A DNA stretch of 43,810 bases from a virus. Taxonomy: Duplodnaviria; Heunggongvirae; Uroviricota; Caudoviricetes. A program made the position numbers and the translations under genes. This document shows, in pieces, positions 9,796 through 40,058 of this stretch (its first letter is position 1; each line of letters starts with the position of its first letter). The notes beneath the pieces were generated by a model. That model was not told the origin of the DNA. It did no database searches and worked only from the letters and a program-made list of their open reading frames with translations. The stretch is taken from IMG/VR virus record IMGVR_UViG_2671180268_000014; one strand, written 5' to 3'.

Positions 9796-10226
9796 ATGAA
9801 AAATATTGCGACAGGCGACGTTCTTGAACGTATCCGCAGACTGGCCCCGTCACATGTAACCGCGCCATTCAAGACGGTAGCGGAGTGGCGCGAGTGGCAA
9901 CTTTCCGAAGGCCAGAAACGTTGTGAGGAGATCAACCGTCAGAATCGTCAGTTGCGGGTGGAAAAAATTCTGAATCGCTCTGGCATCCAGCCATTGCACC
10001 GCAAATGCTCGTTTTCGAATTACCAGGTGCAGAACGAAGCGCAGCGATACGCGTTGAGTCAGGCGAAATCCATCGCTGATGAACTGATGACCGGGTGTAC
10101 AAATTTTGCGTTCAGCGGAAAACCTGGTACCGGGAAGAACCACTTAGCGGCAGCTATCGGGAATCGCCTGCTGAAAGACGGTCAGACAGTGATTGTGGTT
10201 ACCGTGGCTGATGTTATGAGTGCCCT
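9796..10226 (+). CDS. DnaC-like AAA+ helicase loader (YdaV-like), 3' end lost in assembly gap
   Basis: Walker A GKPGTGKNHLAAAIG. The ORF runs into the N-run at 10227; the true stop is not observable. Confidence 0.7.
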
Positions 10227-10556
10227 NNNNNNNNNNNNNNNNNNNNNNNNNNNNNNNNNNNNNNNNNNNNNNNNNNNNNNNNNNNNNNNNNNNNNNNNNN
10301 NNNNNNNNNNNNNNNNNNNNNNNNNNNNNNNNNNNNNNNNNNNNNNNNNNNNNNNNNNNNNNNNNNNNNNNNNNNNNNNNNNNNNNNNNNNNNNNNNNNN
10401 NNNNNNNNNNNNNNNNNNNNNNNNNNNNNNNNNNNNNNNNNNNNNNNNNNNNNNNNNNNNNNNNNNNNNNNNNNNNNNNNNNNNNNNNNNNNNNNNNNNN
10501 NNNNNNNNNNNNNNNNNNNNNNNNNNNNNNNNNNNNNNNNNNNNNNNNNNNNNNNN
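10227..10556. other. Assembly gap (run of N)
   Basis: 330 consecutive N. The X-runs in ORF-track proteins are artefacts of translating it. Confidence 0.99.
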
Positions 10557-10580
10557 AATTTTTACCGGGAGGAAATTTTT

Positions 10581-11342
10581 ATGGAGACTGTTTTTGACGC
10601 ACTGAAAGCAATGGGAAAAGCCACATCCATAGAACTTGCTGCGCGACTTGATATCAGTCGTGAAGAAGTGCTGAACGAACTATGGGAACTGAAAAAAGCT
10701 GGTTTCGTTGATAAAAGCGCGTACACCTGGCGTGTGGCTGATAACAACGTTCAGCAGGAACAGCCAATGCAGGCAGAACTGCCGGAAGAAACCACCACGG
10801 CAACTGTAGTGAAAATCTCAGAGTGCGATTTAACCGCGACGATTGAACAACGCGGACCACAAACGGCGGATGAACTGGCTACGCTGTTCGGTACAACATC
10901 CCGCAAAGTTGCTTCAACGCTGGCAATGGCAATCAGCAAAGGACGCCTGATTCGCGTAAACCAGAACAGTAAATTTCGTTACTGCATGCCGGGCGATAAT
11001 TTACCAGCAGAGCCGAAAGCTGCATCGGTAGCGGAAACTGATGGTAAAGCCTTTCCTCAGCCAGCCGGTGTTGCGTTACCAGTACAGGAAGCGGCAACAC
11101 AGGAAGATATTAAAACAGAAACTGTGGCGGACATTGTGCAGTCGCTGCCATCGTTTACTGAAACGCAAGCGGATGACCTAGTTTTACCATCGCTGCATAT
11201 GGCAAACCGCGAACTGCGTCGGGCGAAAAATCATGTCCAGAAGTGGGAGCGAGTCTGCGCCGCGCTGCGGGAGCTGAACAAGCACCGGGATATTGTCCGA
11301 CAGATTGTCGATTCCTCCAGTCGTATTGTGTCGGAAAAGTGA
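10581..11342 (+). CDS. Hypothetical early protein, probably winged-helix (YdaW/DUF1627-like)
   Basis: ATG at 10581 with GGGAGG SD. N-terminal segment [30 protein letters not shown] is wHTH-like. Confidence 0.4.
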
Positions 11343-24233: not shown

Positions 24234-25328
24234 ATGAGCAGACCGGACTGGGGGGCGTTGCAGCAGGAGTATATTGCTGAATACACCCGCTCCGGTATAT
24301 CTCCGGTGGCATGGTGTGAAGCAAGGGGACTGAATTACGCAACAGCCCGTCGTTACATCAAAAAAACTCCGAAAAATGCGCAGACAGAAATGTGCAAAAC
24401 TGCGCAAAAAAGTGCGCAGAAAAAATCTGCGCAGACTGCACAAAAGCGGAACGAAAAATCTCAGGAAAAAAAGCCAGTATTCGATGCGGGCCTGAATGAG
24501 GGCGACGCGGAGGAATTTTCGTTCTGTCCCGATGAATTCGGCATTTCTGACCAGCAGGCTAAGTTTGCGATGCTTGTTGCTCAGGGTAAAAAGCCGACAG
24601 AGGCGTACCGACTAGCCGGTTATGAGGGGCAAGGTGCGACAGCTAACAGCAACGCCAGTCGTATGCTTAGAAATGCCAGGGTTTTTCGCGCTATCAGCTA
24701 CTTCCGCAATCAGTACCAGAAACGCTATACCGCAGACCTGGATTTACTAGTGAGTCAGTTGATGGCTATTGTCCTGGCCGACCCCAATCAGCTTGCACAA
24801 TTTCGCCGTGTTAACTGCCGTTATTGCTGGGGCGAGAATCATCTCTACCAGTGGCGCGATATAGCAGAATTCGACAAGGCAGCGGCGCAGGCTTCCAGAG
24901 ATGGCAAACCCGAACCGGAATATGGAGGCCTCGGCTTTGTTGATAACGCCATACCCAATCCGGACTGCCCGAAGTGCTGCGGTGAGGGAACGGGACAGCT
25001 TTATATGGCTGATACCACTCTGCTTGATGGGGATGCGCGGCAATTATATGCAGGGGCAAAATTCGGAAAATTCGGCGTTGAGATCCTGCTGGAGGATAAG
25101 GCTGCCGCCCGGCGTGAATTGTTGCGTTTGTTTTCTGCTGGCGGGGCTTTATGTGCAGATAAGCGGCTACGGGAACTGGAAATTGAACGGCGCAGAATGG
25201 AAAACCAGAAGCTGCGCAAAGAGATCGAAACGGTGGAAGATAATGAACATCCCCAGCCTGTGGCGATCAATATTAATGTGGTTGATGCCAGAGTAAGGAG
25301 TGATGAAGATGATCTCTCCGACGCTTAA
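24234..25328 (+). CDS. Terminase small subunit (putative), with zinc-ribbon and AQK-rich linker
   Basis: Immediately upstream of and overlapping terL. Contains CRYCWGENH...CPKCCGEG (two CxxC) and a low-complexity AQK-rich N-terminal stretch that coincides with a DNA repeat array. Confidence 0.55.
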   Translation: MSRPDWGALQQEYIAEYTRSGISPVAWCEARGLNYATARRYIKKTPKNAQTEMCKTAQKSAQKKSAQTAQKRNEKSQEKKPVFDAGLNEGDAEEFSFCPDEFGISDQQAKFAMLVAQGKKPTEAYRLAGYEGQGATANSNASRMLRNARVFRAISYFRNQYQKRYTADLDLLVSQLMAIVLADPNQLAQFRRVNCRYCWGENHLYQWRDIAEFDKAAAQASRDGKPEPEYGGLGFVDNAIPNPDCPKCCGEGTGQLYMADTTLLDGDARQLYAGAKFGKFGVEILLEDKAAARRELLRLFSAGGALCADKRLRELEIERRRMENQKLRKEIETVEDNEHPQPVAININVVDARVRSDEDDLSDA

Positions 25329-33019: not shown

Positions 33020-33982
33020 GTGAGTTCAGGTGCAAAGGTTATCTCGGCATTTATCCGGGAGACGGTTGCAGGCACTACGCCAGCAAGTGGTGACTGGAGT
33101 TTATTAAAACGCACAAGCTGGGGAGTAAAACCCACCCAGAATAAAGGCGAAAATAATGAGATTGGTGGCTCCCGGATGGCTCAGGGGGCGACGCCTGGCA
33201 CTGTGGATGTCGGCGGTGATGTTGGTACCAAATTTCGCTGGGGTCAACATGATGATTTTCTTGCATCCTGTTTCGGCGCGGAATGGTCAGGCGATTCTCT
33301 GACAATGGGGAATGAGCGAATAACATTTTCTCTGGCGACCTATGCGTCCGATGTCGGAATTGCCTCTGTCGTCAGAGGAGCGCAGGTTGGCTCATGGAAA
33401 ATGCAGATCCCTAACGACGGCGATATTACAGCGACCGTAACCTTTGCCGGACTGGACTGGGAATCAAAGGCCGATGATACGAATTTTATCAAAGGCGAAC
33501 CTGTGGATAGTGCAGGAAAGCTACGTTATTCGTTTAAGGAGGTTTCAGCAGTAAGCCTGAATGGTGTTGCCGGAGGTAACGGTTTTTGTATCGACAGTTT
33601 TGATATTCAGTTCGATAACAAACTCCAGACACAGCGTTGTATCGGGACTGGCTCGCCTTATGCAGGAGCAAATATTCCGACTACTTTTACACCGTCCGGT
33701 ACGGTGACGCTTTCATGGTCTAAAGCCGCGTGGGAAATCTGGAGTAAAACACTGACTGGAGAAACAGTTCCGTTCAGCTTCACGCTTTCGAATGGAGAGG
33801 GGGCATACACTTTCAGTTTCCCGAAGGTTCAGGTGTCAGGTGAATGGCCTGATGGGGGTAATAGCGACATTATCCAGGTTCAATTGAGCATTACCGCAGC
33901 AGATGAAGCACCTACGATAACCAGAAAAAAAAATTCCCCGGCTGCCGTGATCGCAAAAGCCAGTGCTGAGGCGATTAGTTGA
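33020..33982 (+). CDS. Major tail tube protein
   Basis: 320-aa protein upstream of the G/GT chaperone pair and tape measure; Thr/Ser/Gly-rich. Not lambda V-like. Confidence 0.5.
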   Translation: MSSGAKVISAFIRETVAGTTPASGDWSLLKRTSWGVKPTQNKGENNEIGGSRMAQGATPGTVDVGGDVGTKFRWGQHDDFLASCFGAEWSGDSLTMGNERITFSLATYASDVGIASVVRGAQVGSWKMQIPNDGDITATVTFAGLDWESKADDTNFIKGEPVDSAGKLRYSFKEVSAVSLNGVAGGNGFCIDSFDIQFDNKLQTQRCIGTGSPYAGANIPTTFTPSGTVTLSWSKAAWEIWSKTLTGETVPFSFTLSNGEGAYTFSFPKVQVSGEWPDGGNSDIIQVQLSITAADEAPTITRKKNSPAAVIAKASAEAIS

Positions 33983-34030
33983 TTTTCCGTTATTCCTCCT
34001 GTGGTACTGCCCTACAGGGGGACGCATTGA

Positions 34031-34492
34031 ATGAGGTTATGGATGTTTATTCTTAATCAGAAAATTATCATTGGTGGAGAACGCTGGTTTACGCCAATGA
34101 AGGACTTAAAACCTGTAGACGGGTTAAAACTGTTGGTGGCAAGCAGCGATAACGATCAGTATCGCTCCCGTAATGCATTAATCCGTCGCCACATTGAGAA
34201 AATGGATGCCAGTTTGCACGTCGGAACGAAGGAGTTTGATATTTCAAAGGTTTCCGAGGTGGATTCTGTTGATGATTTACTCATTGATAATGCCGCTCGT
34301 TATCTGCTGAAAGACTGGAAAGGGGTTGGTGAACTGGTTAATGGTGTTGAGGTTGCACTGGAATATACGGCAGAACGAGGGATCGCGCTGCTTAAGCAGA
34401 ATCCAGAGTTGTACTGGCAGATCCTTGCAGAAGCAGCCAGCATCGCCCAGGGTAAAGAGCAGCAGAAGCAGGATACGATAAAAAAGCCATAG
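34031..34492 (+). CDS. Tail assembly chaperone G
   Basis: 153-aa ORF ending ...QDTIKKP with an in-frame A_AAA_AAG slippery heptamer at 34480-34486, immediately upstream of the tape measure gene. Confidence 0.6.
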   Translation: MRLWMFILNQKIIIGGERWFTPMKDLKPVDGLKLLVASSDNDQYRSRNALIRRHIEKMDASLHVGTKEFDISKVSEVDSVDDLLIDNAARYLLKDWKGVGELVNGVEVALEYTAERGIALLKQNPELYWQILAEAASIAQGKEQQKQDTIKKP

Positions 34493-34800
34493 CTGCCCAG
34501 CGGTGGTTATCGGAGTTCGGGGGAGAAAGGGGGGAAAAGGCAAGATGGAAGCGAGAAAAACTCAGGTTGCCACCGATACCGGAACCAGAAATAGACCCGG
34601 TGCTTAAGGAGTTGTTGTACGCCTATTCGGTAATATCCCGTGCCCGACGTTATGCTGGAATGGCTGGGGTGCCTTTGCCTTTATCTCTGACAGAGATAAA
34701 TGAATATTTAGCCACTCATCCGGTATTGATTGAGCGCGATGAATTTGAAGCAGTGATCTTTGCACTGGATGACCAGTATTTTCAGGAGCAGTGTGTGTAG
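34031..34800 (+). CDS. Tail assembly chaperone GT, product of a -1 programmed frameshift
   Basis: The -1 frame stays open from the slippery site to 34800 (verified codon by codon: ...KK-AIAAQRWLSEFGGERGEKARWKREKLRLPPIPEPEIDPV...). Confidence 0.5.
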
Positions 34801-34920
34801 TTGTTAATTACGTACACTCTGTTACAGAGATGTGATGGTGTCTTTAATTAAATCGATGATGCTCCTGGAGAAAAGCATTGCGTGGCCTCGTAATCGCTAT
34901 ATCTACTATTATGTCGCCTG

Positions 34921-34945
34921 AAACCCACTTCGCGGTGGGTTTTTT
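34921..34945 (+). terminator. Terminator-like hairpin between GT and the tape measure gene
   Basis: aaacccac-ttcgc-ggtgggttttttg; stem followed by a T-run. Probably an attenuator. Confidence 0.45.
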
Positions 34946-34965
34946 GTTGTCAGGAGTTTTAATAA

Positions 34966-37900
34966 ATGGCAGAGCAAACCTCGCGTCTCGCAATAATTAT
35001 TGATAGCACTGGAGCGAAAAATAATGCTGACAATCTGACCTCCTCATTAGTCAAAATGACGCAGGCTGGGGAAACTGCTGCAAATAGCGCAGGGAAAGTG
35101 ACTAAGGCAACAGAAGATGAGAAGAACGCGCTCGCAAAATTAAAAGCAGCTATTGATCCAGTTGGTGCCGCAATTGATACTGTCGGTCGACGCTATTCTG
35201 AATTAAAGAAATTTTTCGATAAAGGGCTTATTGATAAAGAAGAATATGAATTTCTTGTCCGTAAACTTAATGAAACCACAGAGGAATTGAGCGGGGTTGC
35301 GCAAGCGCAGAGAGAAGCCGAGAAGGCCGGAAAACTTGCTGCCGCCCAGCAGGAAGCGCAGGCTCAGGCCTTTCAAAGAATGCTGGACAAGATCGACCCT
35401 CTGGCTGCGGCGCTAAGAAATCTTGAACAACAGCATGATGAACTTAATGCTGCGTTTGCATCCGGGAAAATAAATGGTTCTCAGTTTGAGAATTATAGCC
35501 GAAAAATACAGGAAACACGGCGAGAGCTTACCGGAGAGGCTCAGGCAGAGCGAGAAGCAGCAAAAGCGCATGATGAACAGGTTGTTGCTTTGCAACGTCT
35601 GATTGCTCAACTTGATCCTGTCGGAACTGCTTTTAATCGTCTGGTAGAACAACAGAAACAGCTCAATGAAGCAAAAGCTAAGGGGATGCTTTCTCCTGAA
35701 ATGTATGAGGAGCTTTCTGGAAAACTTCGTGCTATGCGGAGTGAGCTTGAGGTTACTCAATCACAATTAAGCAAAACCGGAATGTCGGCAAAACAAACGG
35801 CTTTTGCTATGCGCATGTTGCCTGTACAAATGACGGATATTGTTGTTGGGTTGTCCACTGGTCAGTCGCCATTTATGGTGTTAATGCAGCAGGGCGGCCA
35901 GCTAAAAGATATGTTCGGTGGGATTGGCCCGGCGATCAAAGGTGTAGGTTCTTATGTGCTGGGATTAATTAATCCTTTTACCCTGGCCGCAGCAGCCGTT
36001 GGGGTCTTAGGACTGGCTTACTATAAAGGCTCTCAGGAGCAGGACGAATTTAATAAATCTCTTATTCTTACCGGAAATCAGTTGGGGACAACCAGCGGGC
36101 AATTGGGCGATATAGCTCAACGTGCCGGGAATGCGGCTGATTCGACAACTGGTGCTGCGGCGGCAGTATTAAATCAGCTTGTGCGTTCGGGAAAGGTAGC
36201 GAGCAGTTCGCTGGAGCAAGTGACGACAGCGATAGTAAAAACGAGCGAAGTAACAGGAATATCAACCGAACAACTGGTTAATGACTTCAATGAAATTGCA
36301 AAGGATCCTGTCAGTGCCATATCAAAACTTAATGATCAGTACCATTTTCTGACACTTGCGACTTATAACCAGATTAAGGCGCTACAGGATGAAGGGAACC
36401 AGCAGGAGGCCGCCCGCATTGCGACAGAAGAATACTCATCCTCAATGATCCAGCGCACCAACCAGATTAAAGAAAATCTTGGTTATCTTGAGACTGCATG
36501 GAAAGCTGTCGCAGACTCCGCAAAATGGGCATGGGATTCCATGCTGGATATTGGCCGTGAGGCCTCCCTTGATCAAAAAATCTCAGATGTTCTCCGTCAA
36601 ATTGATGAAATAGAAAAAAATACCCGACCCGGAGTTTTCGGGTTAGGTGGCATTGGAGATGGCGGAGCTCAAAATAAAAGGCTGGCACGATTAAAGCAGC
36701 AATTGGGCGTACTTCAAGCAGAAAAAATTGCTCAGGACGTACTAAATTCATCAATAAACGATTACAACAAGCGACAACAGGAAGGAATTGAACTCAGACA
36801 GAGAGCAGATGCCTTTTCAAAACAATATCAGACCCGGGAGCAGCAGAGAGCTAGTGAACTTGCAAAACTGGAAAAGCTAAAGAATCAGTATTCAAAGGAA
36901 GAATATAATAATCTTATCGCTCAAATAAATGAGCGTTATAAAGATCCAAAGCAACCAAAGGCGAAAGGTTATTCTGATGATGCAGCCCAACGAATGATTG
37001 ATCATCTGAATCAACAGAATGCGTTACTAAGTTCACAAGCTGAGTTGACCGTTAAATTAAGTTCCTCTGAACAGGAACTGGTTAAGTGGCGTCAGCGGAT
37101 TGCCGACCTAGAGTCACGACCATCATCGAAATTAACCCAGGATCAGAAATCGCTTCTCTTACACCGGGAAGAAATAACCACGTTGATGGAGAAAAATGTT
37201 GCGATTGAAAAAAATAACAGGCTAATCAAGGAATCCGCCGAAATAACAGCATGGCGTGATTCATTGCAGGCTTCGATTGATAATCGTCAGCAGGGGTATG
37301 ATATTCAGATTGCTGGTTATGGGGTTGGCGATAAAAATCAGCAACGCCAGCAGGAATTACTGCGGATTGAACATGGATATAACAATCAGCGTCTGCAACT
37401 TGAACGTGACTATGCAGATAAATCCCGTGGAATGTCAGATCATGTTTTTCAAGAGAAAATGCAGGCTCTGAATGATGCTCTGGAACGGGAAAAAGAAATT
37501 GTCAGACAGAAAAACGAGCAGCTCGATATTCAGGCAGGAGACTGGGTTAGTGGTGCCTCCCAGGGATTCAATAACTGGCTGGATGACACTAAGGATATCA
37601 GTGAGCAGATAAAATCAACCACGACTCAGATGTTTGATGGGATGACCGATGCGCTGGGTGATTTTGTCACGACAGGCAAGGCAAATTTTCGTTCTTTCGC
37701 TACTTCCGTGATTTCGGATCTTAGTCGAATAGCATTAAAGGCTTCAATTACTGGGATTTTCGACAGCATTAGTAACAGTTCTTCTGGGGGGATTTTAGGA
37801 ACTATCGGGAGTGCTATTAGTAAATTTATTCCGAATGCAAAGGGCGGTGTTTATGAGTCTCCGTCATTGAGCACGTATTCGAACGGTATTTATGATTCCC

Positions 37901-38199
37901 CGCAATTTTTTGCTTTTGCAAAAGGGGCTGGTGTTTTTGGTGAGGCTGGACCGGAAGCCATTATGCCATTAACACGAACTTCCGATGGTTCTCTTGGTGT
38001 CAGAGCTATTAATAGTAAAAGTGGTAATGGAGGCGGAGATATTACCTATGCCCCTGTATACCAAATCACTATTCAAAATGACGGCCAGAATGGAGAGATT
38101 GGCCCTCAGGCAATAAAAGCACTTATGGGGATGGTTGATCAGCGGGTGCAGGGCAATCTGTTAAATATGCGACGTGATGGGGGAATGTTAAGTGGCTAA
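34966..38199 (+). CDS. Tail tape measure protein (1077 aa)
   Basis: Long helical, coiled-coil-rich ORF. C-terminal region [55 protein letters not shown] resembles recalled lambda H. Confidence 0.8.
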
Positions 38200-39233: not shown

Positions 39234-40058
39234 ATGACACAGACAGAATCAGCGATTCTGGCGCACGCCCGGCGATGTGCGCCAGCGGAGTCGTGCGGCT
39301 TCGTGGTGAGAACACCGGAGGGGGAAAGATATTTTCCCTGCGTGAATATTTCCGGTGAGCCGGAGGAGTATTTCCGNNNNNNNNNNNNNNNNNNNNNNNN
39401 NNNNNNNNNNNNNNNNNNNNNNNNNNNNNNNNNNNNNNNNNNNNNNNNNNNNNNNNNNNNNNNNNNNNNNNNNNNNNNNNNNNNNNNNNNNNNNNNNNNN
39501 NNNNNNNNNNNNNNNNNNNNNNNNNNNNNNNNNNNNNNNNNNNNNNNNNNNNNNNNNNNNNNNNNNNNNNNNNNNNNNNNNNNNNNNNNNNNNNNNNNNN
39601 NNNNNNNNNNNNNNNNNNNNNNNNNNNNNNNNNNNNNNNNNNNNNNNNNNNNNNNNNNNNNNNNNNNNNNNNNNNNNNNNNNNNNNNNNNNNNNNNNNNN
39701 NNNNCTGGCGGGAATTGAGATGCCAGATTTTCATCGTGAGGACGACTGGTGGCGTAATGGTCAGAATCTCTATCTGGATAATCTGGAGGCTACAGGGCTG
39801 TATCAGGTGCCGTTGTCAACGGCGCAGCCGGGCGATGTGCTGCTGTGCTGTTTTGGTTCATCGGTGCCGAATCATGCCGCCATTTACTGTGGTGACGGCG
39901 AGCTGCTGCACCATATTCCTGAACAACTGAGTAAACGAGAGAGGTACACCGACAAATGGCAGCGACGCACACACTCCCTCTGGCGTCACCGGGCATGGCA
40001 CGCATCTGCCTTTACGGGGATTTGCAGCGATTTGGCCGCCGCATCGACCTTCGTGTGA
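39234..40058 (+). CDS. K: Tail assembly protein K (lambda K-like), interrupted by assembly gap
   Basis: Both ends match recalled lambda K (N-terminus MTQTESAILAHARRCAPAESCGFVV; C-terminus ...VLLCCFGSSVPNHAAIYCGDGELLHHIPEQLSKRERY...). The N-run at 39377-39704 is longer than the roughly 100 nt expected to be missing, so the internal frame is not reliable. Confidence 0.8.
   Translation: MTQTESAILAHARRCAPAESCGFVVRTPEGERYFPCVNISGEPEEYFXXXXXXXXXXXXXXXXXXXXXXXXXXXXXXXXXXXXXXXXXXXXXXXXXXXXXXXXXXXXXXXXXXXXXXXXXXXXXXXXXXXXXXXXXXXXXXXXXXXXXXXXXXXXXXLAGIEMPDFHREDDWWRNGQNLYLDNLEATGLYQVPLSTAQPGDVLLCCFGSSVPNHAAIYCGDGELLHHIPEQLSKRERYTDKWQRRTHSLWRHRAWHASAFTGICSDLAAASTFV
39377..39704. other. Assembly gap (run of N) inside gene K
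   Basis: 328 consecutive N. Confidence 0.99.

What the first reader, a model, noticed from the sequence alone, without database searches (positions are those of the whole stretch)
34480..34486. In-frame A_AAA_AAG slippery heptamer for -1 programmed frameshifting between tail chaperones G and T
The heptamer sits in the X_XXY_YYZ phase of the G frame, 4 nt before its stop. The -1 frame stays open for another 104 codons to 34800. This is the conserved G/GT frameshift of long-tailed phages, here using the dnaX-type heptamer rather than lambda's G_GGA_AAG.
Basis: partly seen in the sequence, partly recalled or inferred. Interest (0 to 1): 0.4.

Follow-up and report, generated by a model that had tools for sequence, protein, structure and literature searches.

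The report
Tail chaperone G/GT frameshift site
This is the usual "slippery" spot where a few ribosomes slip back one base to make a longer version of a phage tail-assembly helper protein; it is an ordinary, well-known device, here in a common E. coli Rac-type prophage whose database annotation misses it.

Summary
AAAAAAG (34480-34486) lies in X_XXY_YYZ phase of a 149-codon ORF (34043-34492) between the tail tube gene and the tape measure gene. It sits one codon before the TAG, and the -1 frame runs 104 more codons to 34800.

The motif alone is common: 22 copies in the window, about 14 expected. Comparison makes the case. In 32 distinct relatives the heptamer is invariant and in phase, while the G stop lies 3 to 105 nt downstream. 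Mixta and Acinetobacter relatives carry G_GGA_AAG in the same alignment column. Third-codon-position variation switches from frame 0 to frame -1 exactly at the heptamer. The 27 codons after it, which precede any start codon, evolve as coding sequence only in the -1 frame. The in-silico fusion matches PHROG 313 (tail assembly chaperone) end to end.

I found no conserved downstream RNA structure.

The best reading is a G/GT -1 programmed ribosomal frameshift that works like lambda's, although the proteins show no sequence similarity to lambda G/T. A_AAA_AAG is already documented at other G/GT sites, so the heptamer is not new. RefSeq annotates the locus as "protein YdaY" plus a separate hypothetical protein. 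This is a new member of a known kind, of low interest.

The parts
33020..33982 (+). Tail tube (major tail) protein gene, directly upstream of G.
   Evidence: Pfam PF18906 Phage_tube_2, E 9e-32. RefSeq calls it 'phage tail tube protein'.
34043..34492 (+). G: tail assembly chaperone, 149 aa, the zero-frame product ending ...DTIKKP-TAG. The likely start is ATG 34043, 6 nt behind GAGG. An in-frame ATG at 34031 is possible. PGAP's start at 34133 ('YdaY', 119 aa) is too far downstream.
34470..34473 (+). AGGA, an SD-like tetramer 6 nt upstream of the heptamer. It is only a candidate upstream stimulator.
   Evidence: Invariant in all 32 distinct A_AAA_AAG relatives and present in Acinetobacter phage TRS1. 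It also encodes the conserved Gln-Asp/Glu, so protein constraint cannot be separated from RNA constraint. Sharma et al. 2014 search 6-17 nt upstream for such SDs.
34480..34486 (+). Slippery heptamer A_AAA_AAG, the -1 shift site. tRNA-Lys in the P and A sites re-pairs from AAA-AAG to AAA-AAA. It is followed by CC.
   Evidence: Phase and sequence. Invariant in 32 distinct relatives and replaced by G_GGA_AAG at the same column in Mixta and Acinetobacter. The measured motif efficiencies of the two heptamers are nearly equal in E. coli.
34486..34800 (+). T segment: 104 codons in the -1 frame, read only after the shift. The GT fusion is 34043-34486 joined to 34486-34800 and is 252 aa with junction ...QDTIKK/AIAAQRW...
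   Evidence: No start codon occurs in this frame before TTG 34567. Over 34486-34566, synonymous:nonsynonymous codon changes are 12:6 in the -1 frame against 3:17 and 1:18 in the other frames. Hits phrog_1189 at E 1e-36 and, weakly, PF23812 Phage_TAC_18. The fusion hits phrog_313 in one stretch.
34920..34950 (+). Terminator-like hairpin plus T run between the T stop and the tape measure start. It is context and not part of the shift signal.
   Evidence: Scan. Hairpin-plus-T-run elements of unrelated sequence recur at this place in relatives.
34966..38199 (+). Tape measure protein gene, directly downstream.
   Evidence: Pfam TMP_2 at E 4e-81, Tape_meas_lam_C and TMP_4.

Best explanation
The site is a -1 programmed ribosomal frameshift in the tail-assembly-chaperone gene pair of a Rac-type siphovirus prophage.

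Most ribosomes read G (34043-34492) to its TAG and make a 149-aa chaperone. A small fraction, while decoding AAA-AAG with tRNA-Lys in the P and A sites, slip back one base on A_AAA_AAG. They re-pair with AAA-AAA and continue in the -1 frame to 34800, making a 252-aa GT fusion (...DTIKK-AIAAQRW...).

By analogy with lambda, the shared G part would bind the tape measure protein and the T part would recruit the tube protein. The fixed low shift rate would set the G:GT ratio that correct tail assembly needs.

Shown here: the anatomy, the conservation, and purifying selection on the -1 frame starting at the heptamer. Inferred: that slippage occurs on the ribosome, its rate, and the roles of the G and T parts. 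Published values for this heptamer range from about 0.3% for the bare motif to a few percent in native or stimulated contexts.
For: 1. Anatomy. The heptamer is in phase, and the productive overlap is only 37 nt and holds a single slippery site.
2. Gene order. The order is tube - G - T - tape measure - lambda-like minor tail genes (Phage_min_tail, Phage_tail_L).
3. Conservation. 32 distinct enterobacterial sequences (65-100% protein identity) all keep A_AAA_AAG in phase, although the G stop lies 3, 21, 75 or 105 nt downstream.
4. Heptamer exchange. At the same alignment column Mixta and Acinetobacter have G_GGA_AAG, Pseudomonas has G_GAA_AAG and Erwinia has C_GCA_AAG. The A-site Lys (K148) is invariant.
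5. Substitution pattern. Upstream of the heptamer, variation falls on frame-0 third positions. The three wobble positions inside the heptamer never vary. From +9 onward, variation falls on third positions of the -1 frame.
6. Coding signal before any start codon. Over the 81 nt after the heptamer, synonymous:nonsynonymous changes are 12:6 in the -1 frame against 3:17 and 1:18 in the other frames.
7. Family match. The in-silico fusion matches phrog_313 'tail assembly chaperone' in one stretch, residues 5-249 to profile positions 20-246 of 258, at E 8e-51.
8. Existing annotation in a relative. A family member, Acinetobacter phage TRS1, is already annotated with a joined CDS.
9. Motif efficiency. 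[quoted passage not shown] A 3' CC, as here, was the most shift-prone 3' dinucleotide (PMC5009743).
Confidence: 0.9

Rival explanations
1. G and T are two separate genes. T would be translated on its own from an internal start (GTG 34600 or TTG 34567), as RefSeq and GenBank annotate it, and the heptamer would be incidental.
For: PGAP and the phage records call a separate 61-66 aa 'hypothetical protein'. The most conserved T core (phrog_1189) starts near residue 29 of the -1 segment.
Against: The 27 codons upstream of the first possible start evolve under purifying selection only in the -1 frame, and third-position variation switches frame exactly at the heptamer. No SD precedes GTG 34600 or TTG 34567. 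The heptamer and its phase are conserved, or exchanged for another slippery heptamer, across genera. The fusion aligns with phrog_313 in a single stretch.
Confidence: 0.04
2. The fusion arises from transcriptional slippage. RNA polymerase would drop or add an A in the A6 run, so a fraction of mRNAs would carry G and T in one frame.
For: The site includes a run of six A. Poly-A runs can cause polymerase slippage (PMC3711429).
Against: Programmed transcriptional realignment is reported for runs of more than 7 A (PMC3711429), and this run has 6. Relatives with G_GGA_AAG, G_GAA_AAG or C_GCA_AAG at the same column have no long homopolymer yet keep the same two-frame layout. What is conserved is the phase-specific A_AAG in the A site, which is a ribosomal property.
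Confidence: 0.04
3. The layout is a decayed gene: an originally single ORF broken by a frameshift mutation in a defective prophage, or an assembly error in a homopolymer.
For: Rac in K-12 is a cryptic, partly deleted prophage. Some database entries do carry in-frame fusions or broken copies (P0001, L016).
Against: The same two-frame layout is present across 1093 E. coli genomes with a match to the region. It is also present in isolated phages of Klebsiella, Erwinia, Pseudomonas and Acinetobacter. Both frames are under selection. The one natural fusion seen, P0001, is a 35-nt deletion between direct repeats and not the ancestral state.
Confidence: 0.02

Closest known systems
Phage lambda G/GT -1 frameshift (Levin, Hendrix & Casjens 1993; Xu, Hendrix & Duda 2004, 2013, 2014)
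   Same: Same position between the major tail and tape measure genes. The -1 shift lies near the 3' end of G, the T frame has no start of its own, there is no conserved RNA stimulator, and the downstream minor tail genes are lambda-like.
   Different: Lambda uses G_GGA_AAG 15 nt before the G stop, against A_AAA_AAG 3 nt before it here. G and T show no detectable sequence similarity to lambda's: no BLASTP hit, and hhalign probability 0.15%. The tube protein here is the Phage_tube_2 type.
E. coli O157:H7 Sakai prophage Sp9 ECs1801/ECs1802 (cluster A_AAA_AAG_25 of Sharma et al. 2014), and VT1-Sakai as listed in Xu et al. 2004
   Same: E. coli prophage tail chaperone pair using A_AAA_AAG at the very end of G (PMC3483164).
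   Different: It is an unrelated protein sequence, with no BLASTP similarity. The stop follows the heptamer directly, and the products are 124 and 226 aa against 149 and 252 aa here.
Acinetobacter phage vB_AbaS_TRS1 gp18/gp19 (phrog_313 member, annotated as a joined CDS)
   Same: Same protein family, at 25% identity to the fusion. The shift lies at the same alignment column and the layout is the same.
   Different: TRS1 uses G_GGA_AAG about 78 nt before the G stop, and its frameshift is already annotated.
E. coli dnaX gamma/tau frameshift
   Same: Identical heptamer, A_AAA_AAG, decoded by the single tRNA-Lys (PMC5009743).
   Different: dnaX has an SD-like element and a strong downstream hairpin that give about 50% shifting and a shorter product. 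Here there is no conserved hairpin, only an AGGA at 6 nt, and the shifted product is longer.

Membership tests
Conserved G/GT tail-assembly-chaperone frameshift of long-tailed phages (Xu et al. 2004) | Two ORFs lying between the major tail/tube gene and the tape measure gene | tested here: met
   Tube gene 33020-33982, G 34043-34492, T to 34800, tape measure gene 34966-38199.
Conserved G/GT tail-assembly-chaperone frameshift of long-tailed phages (Xu et al. 2004) | The second ORF overlaps the end of the first in the -1 frame and has no initiation signal of its own | tested here: met
   The -1 frame is open over 34456-34800. The first possible start is TTG 34567, with no SD. The coding signature starts at the heptamer.
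Conserved G/GT tail-assembly-chaperone frameshift of long-tailed phages (Xu et al. 2004) | A slippery sequence in phase within the overlap, conserved among relatives | tested here: met
   A_AAA_AAG is invariant in 32 distinct sequences. G_GGA_AAG occupies the same column in Mixta and Acinetobacter.
Conserved G/GT tail-assembly-chaperone frameshift of long-tailed phages (Xu et al. 2004) | G and GT are both made, at a high G:GT ratio, and both are needed for tail assembly | not testable with these tools
   This needs protein detection and genetics.
Conserved G/GT tail-assembly-chaperone frameshift of long-tailed phages (Xu et al. 2004) | G has the fold of solved tail assembly chaperones | tested here: inconclusive
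Lambda gpG / gpT protein families (sequence homology) | Detectable sequence similarity to lambda G or GT | tested here: not met
   BLASTP gives no meaningful hit. hhalign of the family alignment against lambda GT gives probability 0.15%. No Pfam lambda-G hit.
PHROG 313 (tail assembly chaperone) | Significant match to the family profile | tested here: met
   G alone scores E 5e-46. The fusion scores E 8e-51 over profile positions 20-246 of 258, and all 6 aligned relatives match.
dnaX-type frameshift cassette | A_AAA_AAG heptamer | tested here: met
dnaX-type frameshift cassette | Upstream SD-like stimulator at a suitable distance | tested here: inconclusive
   AGGA lies 6 nt upstream and is invariant among relatives, but it is confounded with the conserved Gln-Asp/Glu codons.
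dnaX-type frameshift cassette | Stable downstream hairpin 5-8 nt after the heptamer | tested here: not met
   The only local hairpin starts 0 nt after the heptamer, and its energy is no better than shuffles (z = -0.18). Across 10 relatives there is no conserved structure and no covariation.

The most novel reading that the evidence does not exclude
The Rac/YdaY-type cassette may be a minimal, stimulator-free -1 frameshift signal tuned only by short local context: the invariant 3' CC and an AGGA 6 nt upstream. An intact copy (heptamer plus the complete, unannotated T frame) also survives next to ydaY in E. coli K-12. That would add one more chromosomal -1 frameshift site to K-12, one that could be assayed directly in existing ribosome-profiling and proteomic data.
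Probability: 0.2. Interest if true: 0.3.

Novelty: new member of a known kind. Interest (0 to 1): 0.15.

Why it matters
The main value is to annotation. This tail module matches DNA in 1093 of 5426 complete E. coli genomes. Every record I inspected annotates it as 'protein YdaY', with a start copied from the truncated K-12 remnant, plus an unrelated 'hypothetical protein'. It should be a tail assembly chaperone G and a joined GT product. The result also gives the K-12 y-gene ydaY a function label: the remnant of a tail assembly chaperone gene.

The family gives a clean natural example of one efficient heptamer exchanged for another (A_AAA_AAG and G_GGA_AAG) at a fixed protein position. This fits reporter measurements showing that the two are equally shift-prone. 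It adds no new mechanism.

Tried and rejected
- Downstream stimulatory RNA. I folded 34487-34580 and 34440-34640 and made a consensus fold of 10 relatives. Nothing exceeded shuffles and there was no covariation. An Rfam scan of 33900-35100 gave only a sub-threshold terminator-like match.
- Stop-codon proximity as a required stimulator. Rejected, because relatives keep the heptamer while the stop lies 3 to 105 nt away.
- Homology to lambda G/GT or to Sakai ECs1801. None was found.
- Solved-structure sequence search with the family profile. No hit.
- Pfam on G. No family in the local copy. The precomputed tag PF27119 on the hits is not in that copy, so I could not name it.
- Pseudomonas relatives. 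At first they seemed to lack a site. The homologous column carries the imperfect G_GAA_AAG, and a nearby GGGAAAG is out of phase.
The viral-contig scan supplied the comparative set.
- The 28-aa ORF at 34835-34921 as a possible small gene. Probably not coding, given start loss in 4 loci (5 if L058's duplicate is counted) and a nonsense change in one.
- Literature searches for ydaY as a tail gene or frameshift site. Nothing found.

Full report
**Observation.** Positions 34480-34486 read AAAAAAG. The ORF that contains them runs from ATG 34031, or more likely ATG 34043, to TAG 34490-34492. ATG 34043 lies 6 nt behind GAGG and is where the conserved N-terminus of relatives begins. The local codons are ATA AAA AAG CCA TAG, so the heptamer is in A_AAA_AAG phase, one sense codon (3 nt) before the stop. 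The -1 frame is open from 34456 to 34800. Starting at the last heptamer base it encodes 104 residues.

**Is it more than chance?**
- The heptamer alone is not. It occurs 22 times in the window against 14.4 +/- 3.7 expected.
- Only this copy combines a long upstream reading frame, an adjacent stop and a long -1 extension.
- A productive -1 shift can occur only within 34456-34492, which holds 11 in-phase positions. From the window's own genes, the expected number there is 0.057 for any X_XXY_YYZ heptamer and 0.004 for the three most efficient E. coli motifs.

**Context.** The gene upstream is a tail tube protein (PF18906). Downstream lie a 1077-aa tape measure protein and lambda-like minor tail genes (Phage_min_tail, Phage_tail_L). 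G hits phrog_313 'tail assembly chaperone' at E 5e-46. The -1 segment hits phrog_1189 and, below threshold, Pfam Phage_TAC_18.

The window is a Rac-type E. coli prophage:
- The 1981-bp query 33020-35000 is 100% identical to many E. coli chromosomes, has a match in 1093 of 5426 complete genomes, and is 100% identical to Salmonella phage SPF_0923.
- RefSeq annotates G as 'protein YdaY' with a start at window 34133, plus a separate 66-aa hypothetical protein. No inspected record for this DNA joins the two.
- K-12 ydaY is a 5'-truncated copy of this G. The heptamer and the whole T frame are intact and 100% identical there, and T is not annotated.

**Comparative test.** tblastn with the in-silico fusion found two-frame homologues in Klebsiella, Erwinia, Pseudomonas and Acinetobacter phages. 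Scans of public collections gave 87 further loci.
- *Heptamer conservation.* In 32 distinct junction sequences from enterobacterial relatives (65-100% protein identity) the heptamer is invariant and in phase, although the G stop lies 3, 21, 75 or 105 nt downstream. Stop proximity is therefore not the conserved feature; the heptamer is.
- *Heptamer exchange.* In a protein alignment of fusions from five genera, the junction falls in one column and the A-site Lys (K148) is invariant. At that column Mixta and Acinetobacter carry lambda's G_GGA_AAG, Pseudomonas carries G_GAA_AAG, and Erwinia phage Gungnir39 carries C_GCA_AAG followed by TAA. Exchanging AAA for GGG keeps slipperiness while changing the protein from K-K to G-K. 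Reporter data show near-equal efficiencies for the two heptamers in E. coli: 0.29 vs 0.28% bare, 4.3 vs 3.8% with IS911 stimulators, and 39 vs 43% with the IS3 pseudoknot (PMC4066793 supplement).

**Frame switch.** Column-by-column variation among the 32 sequences shows substitutions on frame-0 third positions upstream of the heptamer. There are none at the three wobble positions inside it. From +9 onward they fall on the third positions of the -1 frame.

Over the 81 nt after the heptamer, all upstream of the first possible start codon in that frame (TTG 34567), codon differences from a 78%-identical relative are 12 synonymous to 6 non-synonymous in the -1 frame. The other frames give 3:17 and 1:18, and seven further comparisons show the same pattern. 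The -1 frame is therefore translated from the heptamer onward, which an independent start cannot explain. The fused sequence aligns with phrog_313 in one uninterrupted stretch, residues 5-249 to profile positions 20-246 of 258, at E 8e-51. One family member, Acinetobacter phage TRS1, is already deposited with a joined CDS.

**Stimulators.**
- *Downstream structure.* The only local hairpin begins 0 nt after the heptamer, so most of it would already be unwound. Its energy is no better than shuffles (z = -0.18). A consensus fold of ten relatives gives -2.9 kcal/mol with no covariation. Rfam finds nothing.
- *3' context.* The two bases after the heptamer are CC in all A_AAA_AAG relatives. CC is reported as the most shift-prone 3' dinucleotide for this motif (PMC5009743).
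- *Upstream SD-like element.* An AGGA 6 nt upstream is invariant, but it coincides with conserved Gln-Asp/Glu codons.

Both contexts are candidate modulators only. The cassette therefore resembles lambda's (low level, no strong stimulator) rather than dnaX's.

**Mechanism and rivals.** The best explanation is tandem -1 slippage of tRNA-Lys on A_AAA_AAG, giving G (149 aa) and a minor GT (252 aa). By analogy with lambda, G would bind the tape measure protein, T would recruit the tube protein, and the shift rate would fix the ratio (PMC5009743). This functional part is inferred.
- *Independent initiation of T* is contradicted by the coding signature upstream of any start.
- *Transcriptional slippage* is unlikely. 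The run has only six A, and programmed realignment is reported for more than seven (PMC3711429). Relatives without a homopolymer keep the same layout.
- *A pseudogene or assembly error* is excluded by the breadth of conservation.

**Comparison with known systems.** The site works like lambda G/GT, but the proteins show no detectable similarity to lambda G/T: no BLASTP hit, and hhalign probability 0.15%. They are also unrelated to the Sakai ECs1801/1802 pair, which also uses A_AAA_AAG.

A_AAA_AAG at G/GT sites is already on record for VT1-Sakai, psiM2, PVL, PV83, ul36 and a Borrelia prophage (PMC3483164, citing Xu et al. 2004) and for ECs1801 (PMC4066793). The YdaY-type pair is not among the prophage clusters of that systematic enterobacterial screen. 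I found no paper describing it.

**Verdict.** This is a real and correctly interpreted feature, and an ordinary one: a new, so far unannotated member of a very well known kind. Its value lies in correcting a widespread annotation and in the clean heptamer exchange within one family. Interest is low.

Noticed in passing
window 34140-35100; L098 (NC_000913.3 1425329-1426288): E. coli K-12 ydaY (b1366, cryptic prophage Rac) is a 5'-truncated copy of this G gene. The heptamer and the complete 104-codon T frame are 100% identical and intact in K-12, but T is not annotated there.
   Followed up: partly
window 34043-34133: RefSeq/PGAP starts 'protein YdaY' at 34133 even in intact prophages, apparently copying the truncated K-12 protein. 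The conserved N-terminus (invariant R14, W15) begins at ATG 34043.
   Followed up: yes
window 34801-34965 (hairpin 34920-34943 plus T run): A terminator-like hairpin sits inside the tail operon between T and the tape measure gene. In relatives this gap is a variable insertion slot, with lipoprotein-like ORFs in Klebsiella and Citrobacter. A GC hairpin plus T run of unrelated sequence recurs right after T, which might attenuate transcription into the tape measure gene.
   Followed up: partly
window 34835-34921: A 28-aa ORF (MVSLIKSMMLLEKSIAWPRNRYIYYYVA) ends at the terminator. It is probably not coding, because its ATG is ATA in four loci (five if L058's duplicate is counted) and one locus has a TGG to TGA change.
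   Followed up: partly
window 34427-34471; protein P0001: One E. coli record (NB16F79_39920, 240 aa) carries a permanent in-frame G-T fusion made by a 35-nt deletion between the direct repeats GCAGAAGCAG at 34427 and 34462. By analogy with lambda, such a prophage should make only GT and be defective for tails.
   Followed up: partly
window 10227-10556 and 39377-39704: Two runs of N (masked sequence) lie inside ORFs 9796-10605 and 39234-40058. ORF calls there are unreliable.
   Followed up: no
window 36189-36195 and 24467-24473: Two other efficient heptamers are in phase: G_GGA_AAG inside the tape measure gene (28-codon -1 tail) and A_AAA_AAG in ORF 24234-25328 (8-codon -1 tail). They are likely incidental low-level shift sites. 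Their conservation was not checked.
   Followed up: no
L005/L006 (Pseudomonas phages PSA-2T, Aurca01) 1887-1893; L004 (Erwinia phage Gungnir39) 1986-1992: At the homologous column these relatives have imperfect heptamers: G_GAA_AAG, and C_GCA_AAG followed directly by TAA. They may rely on single-tRNA A_AAG slippage. Neither is annotated as a frameshift.
   Followed up: partly
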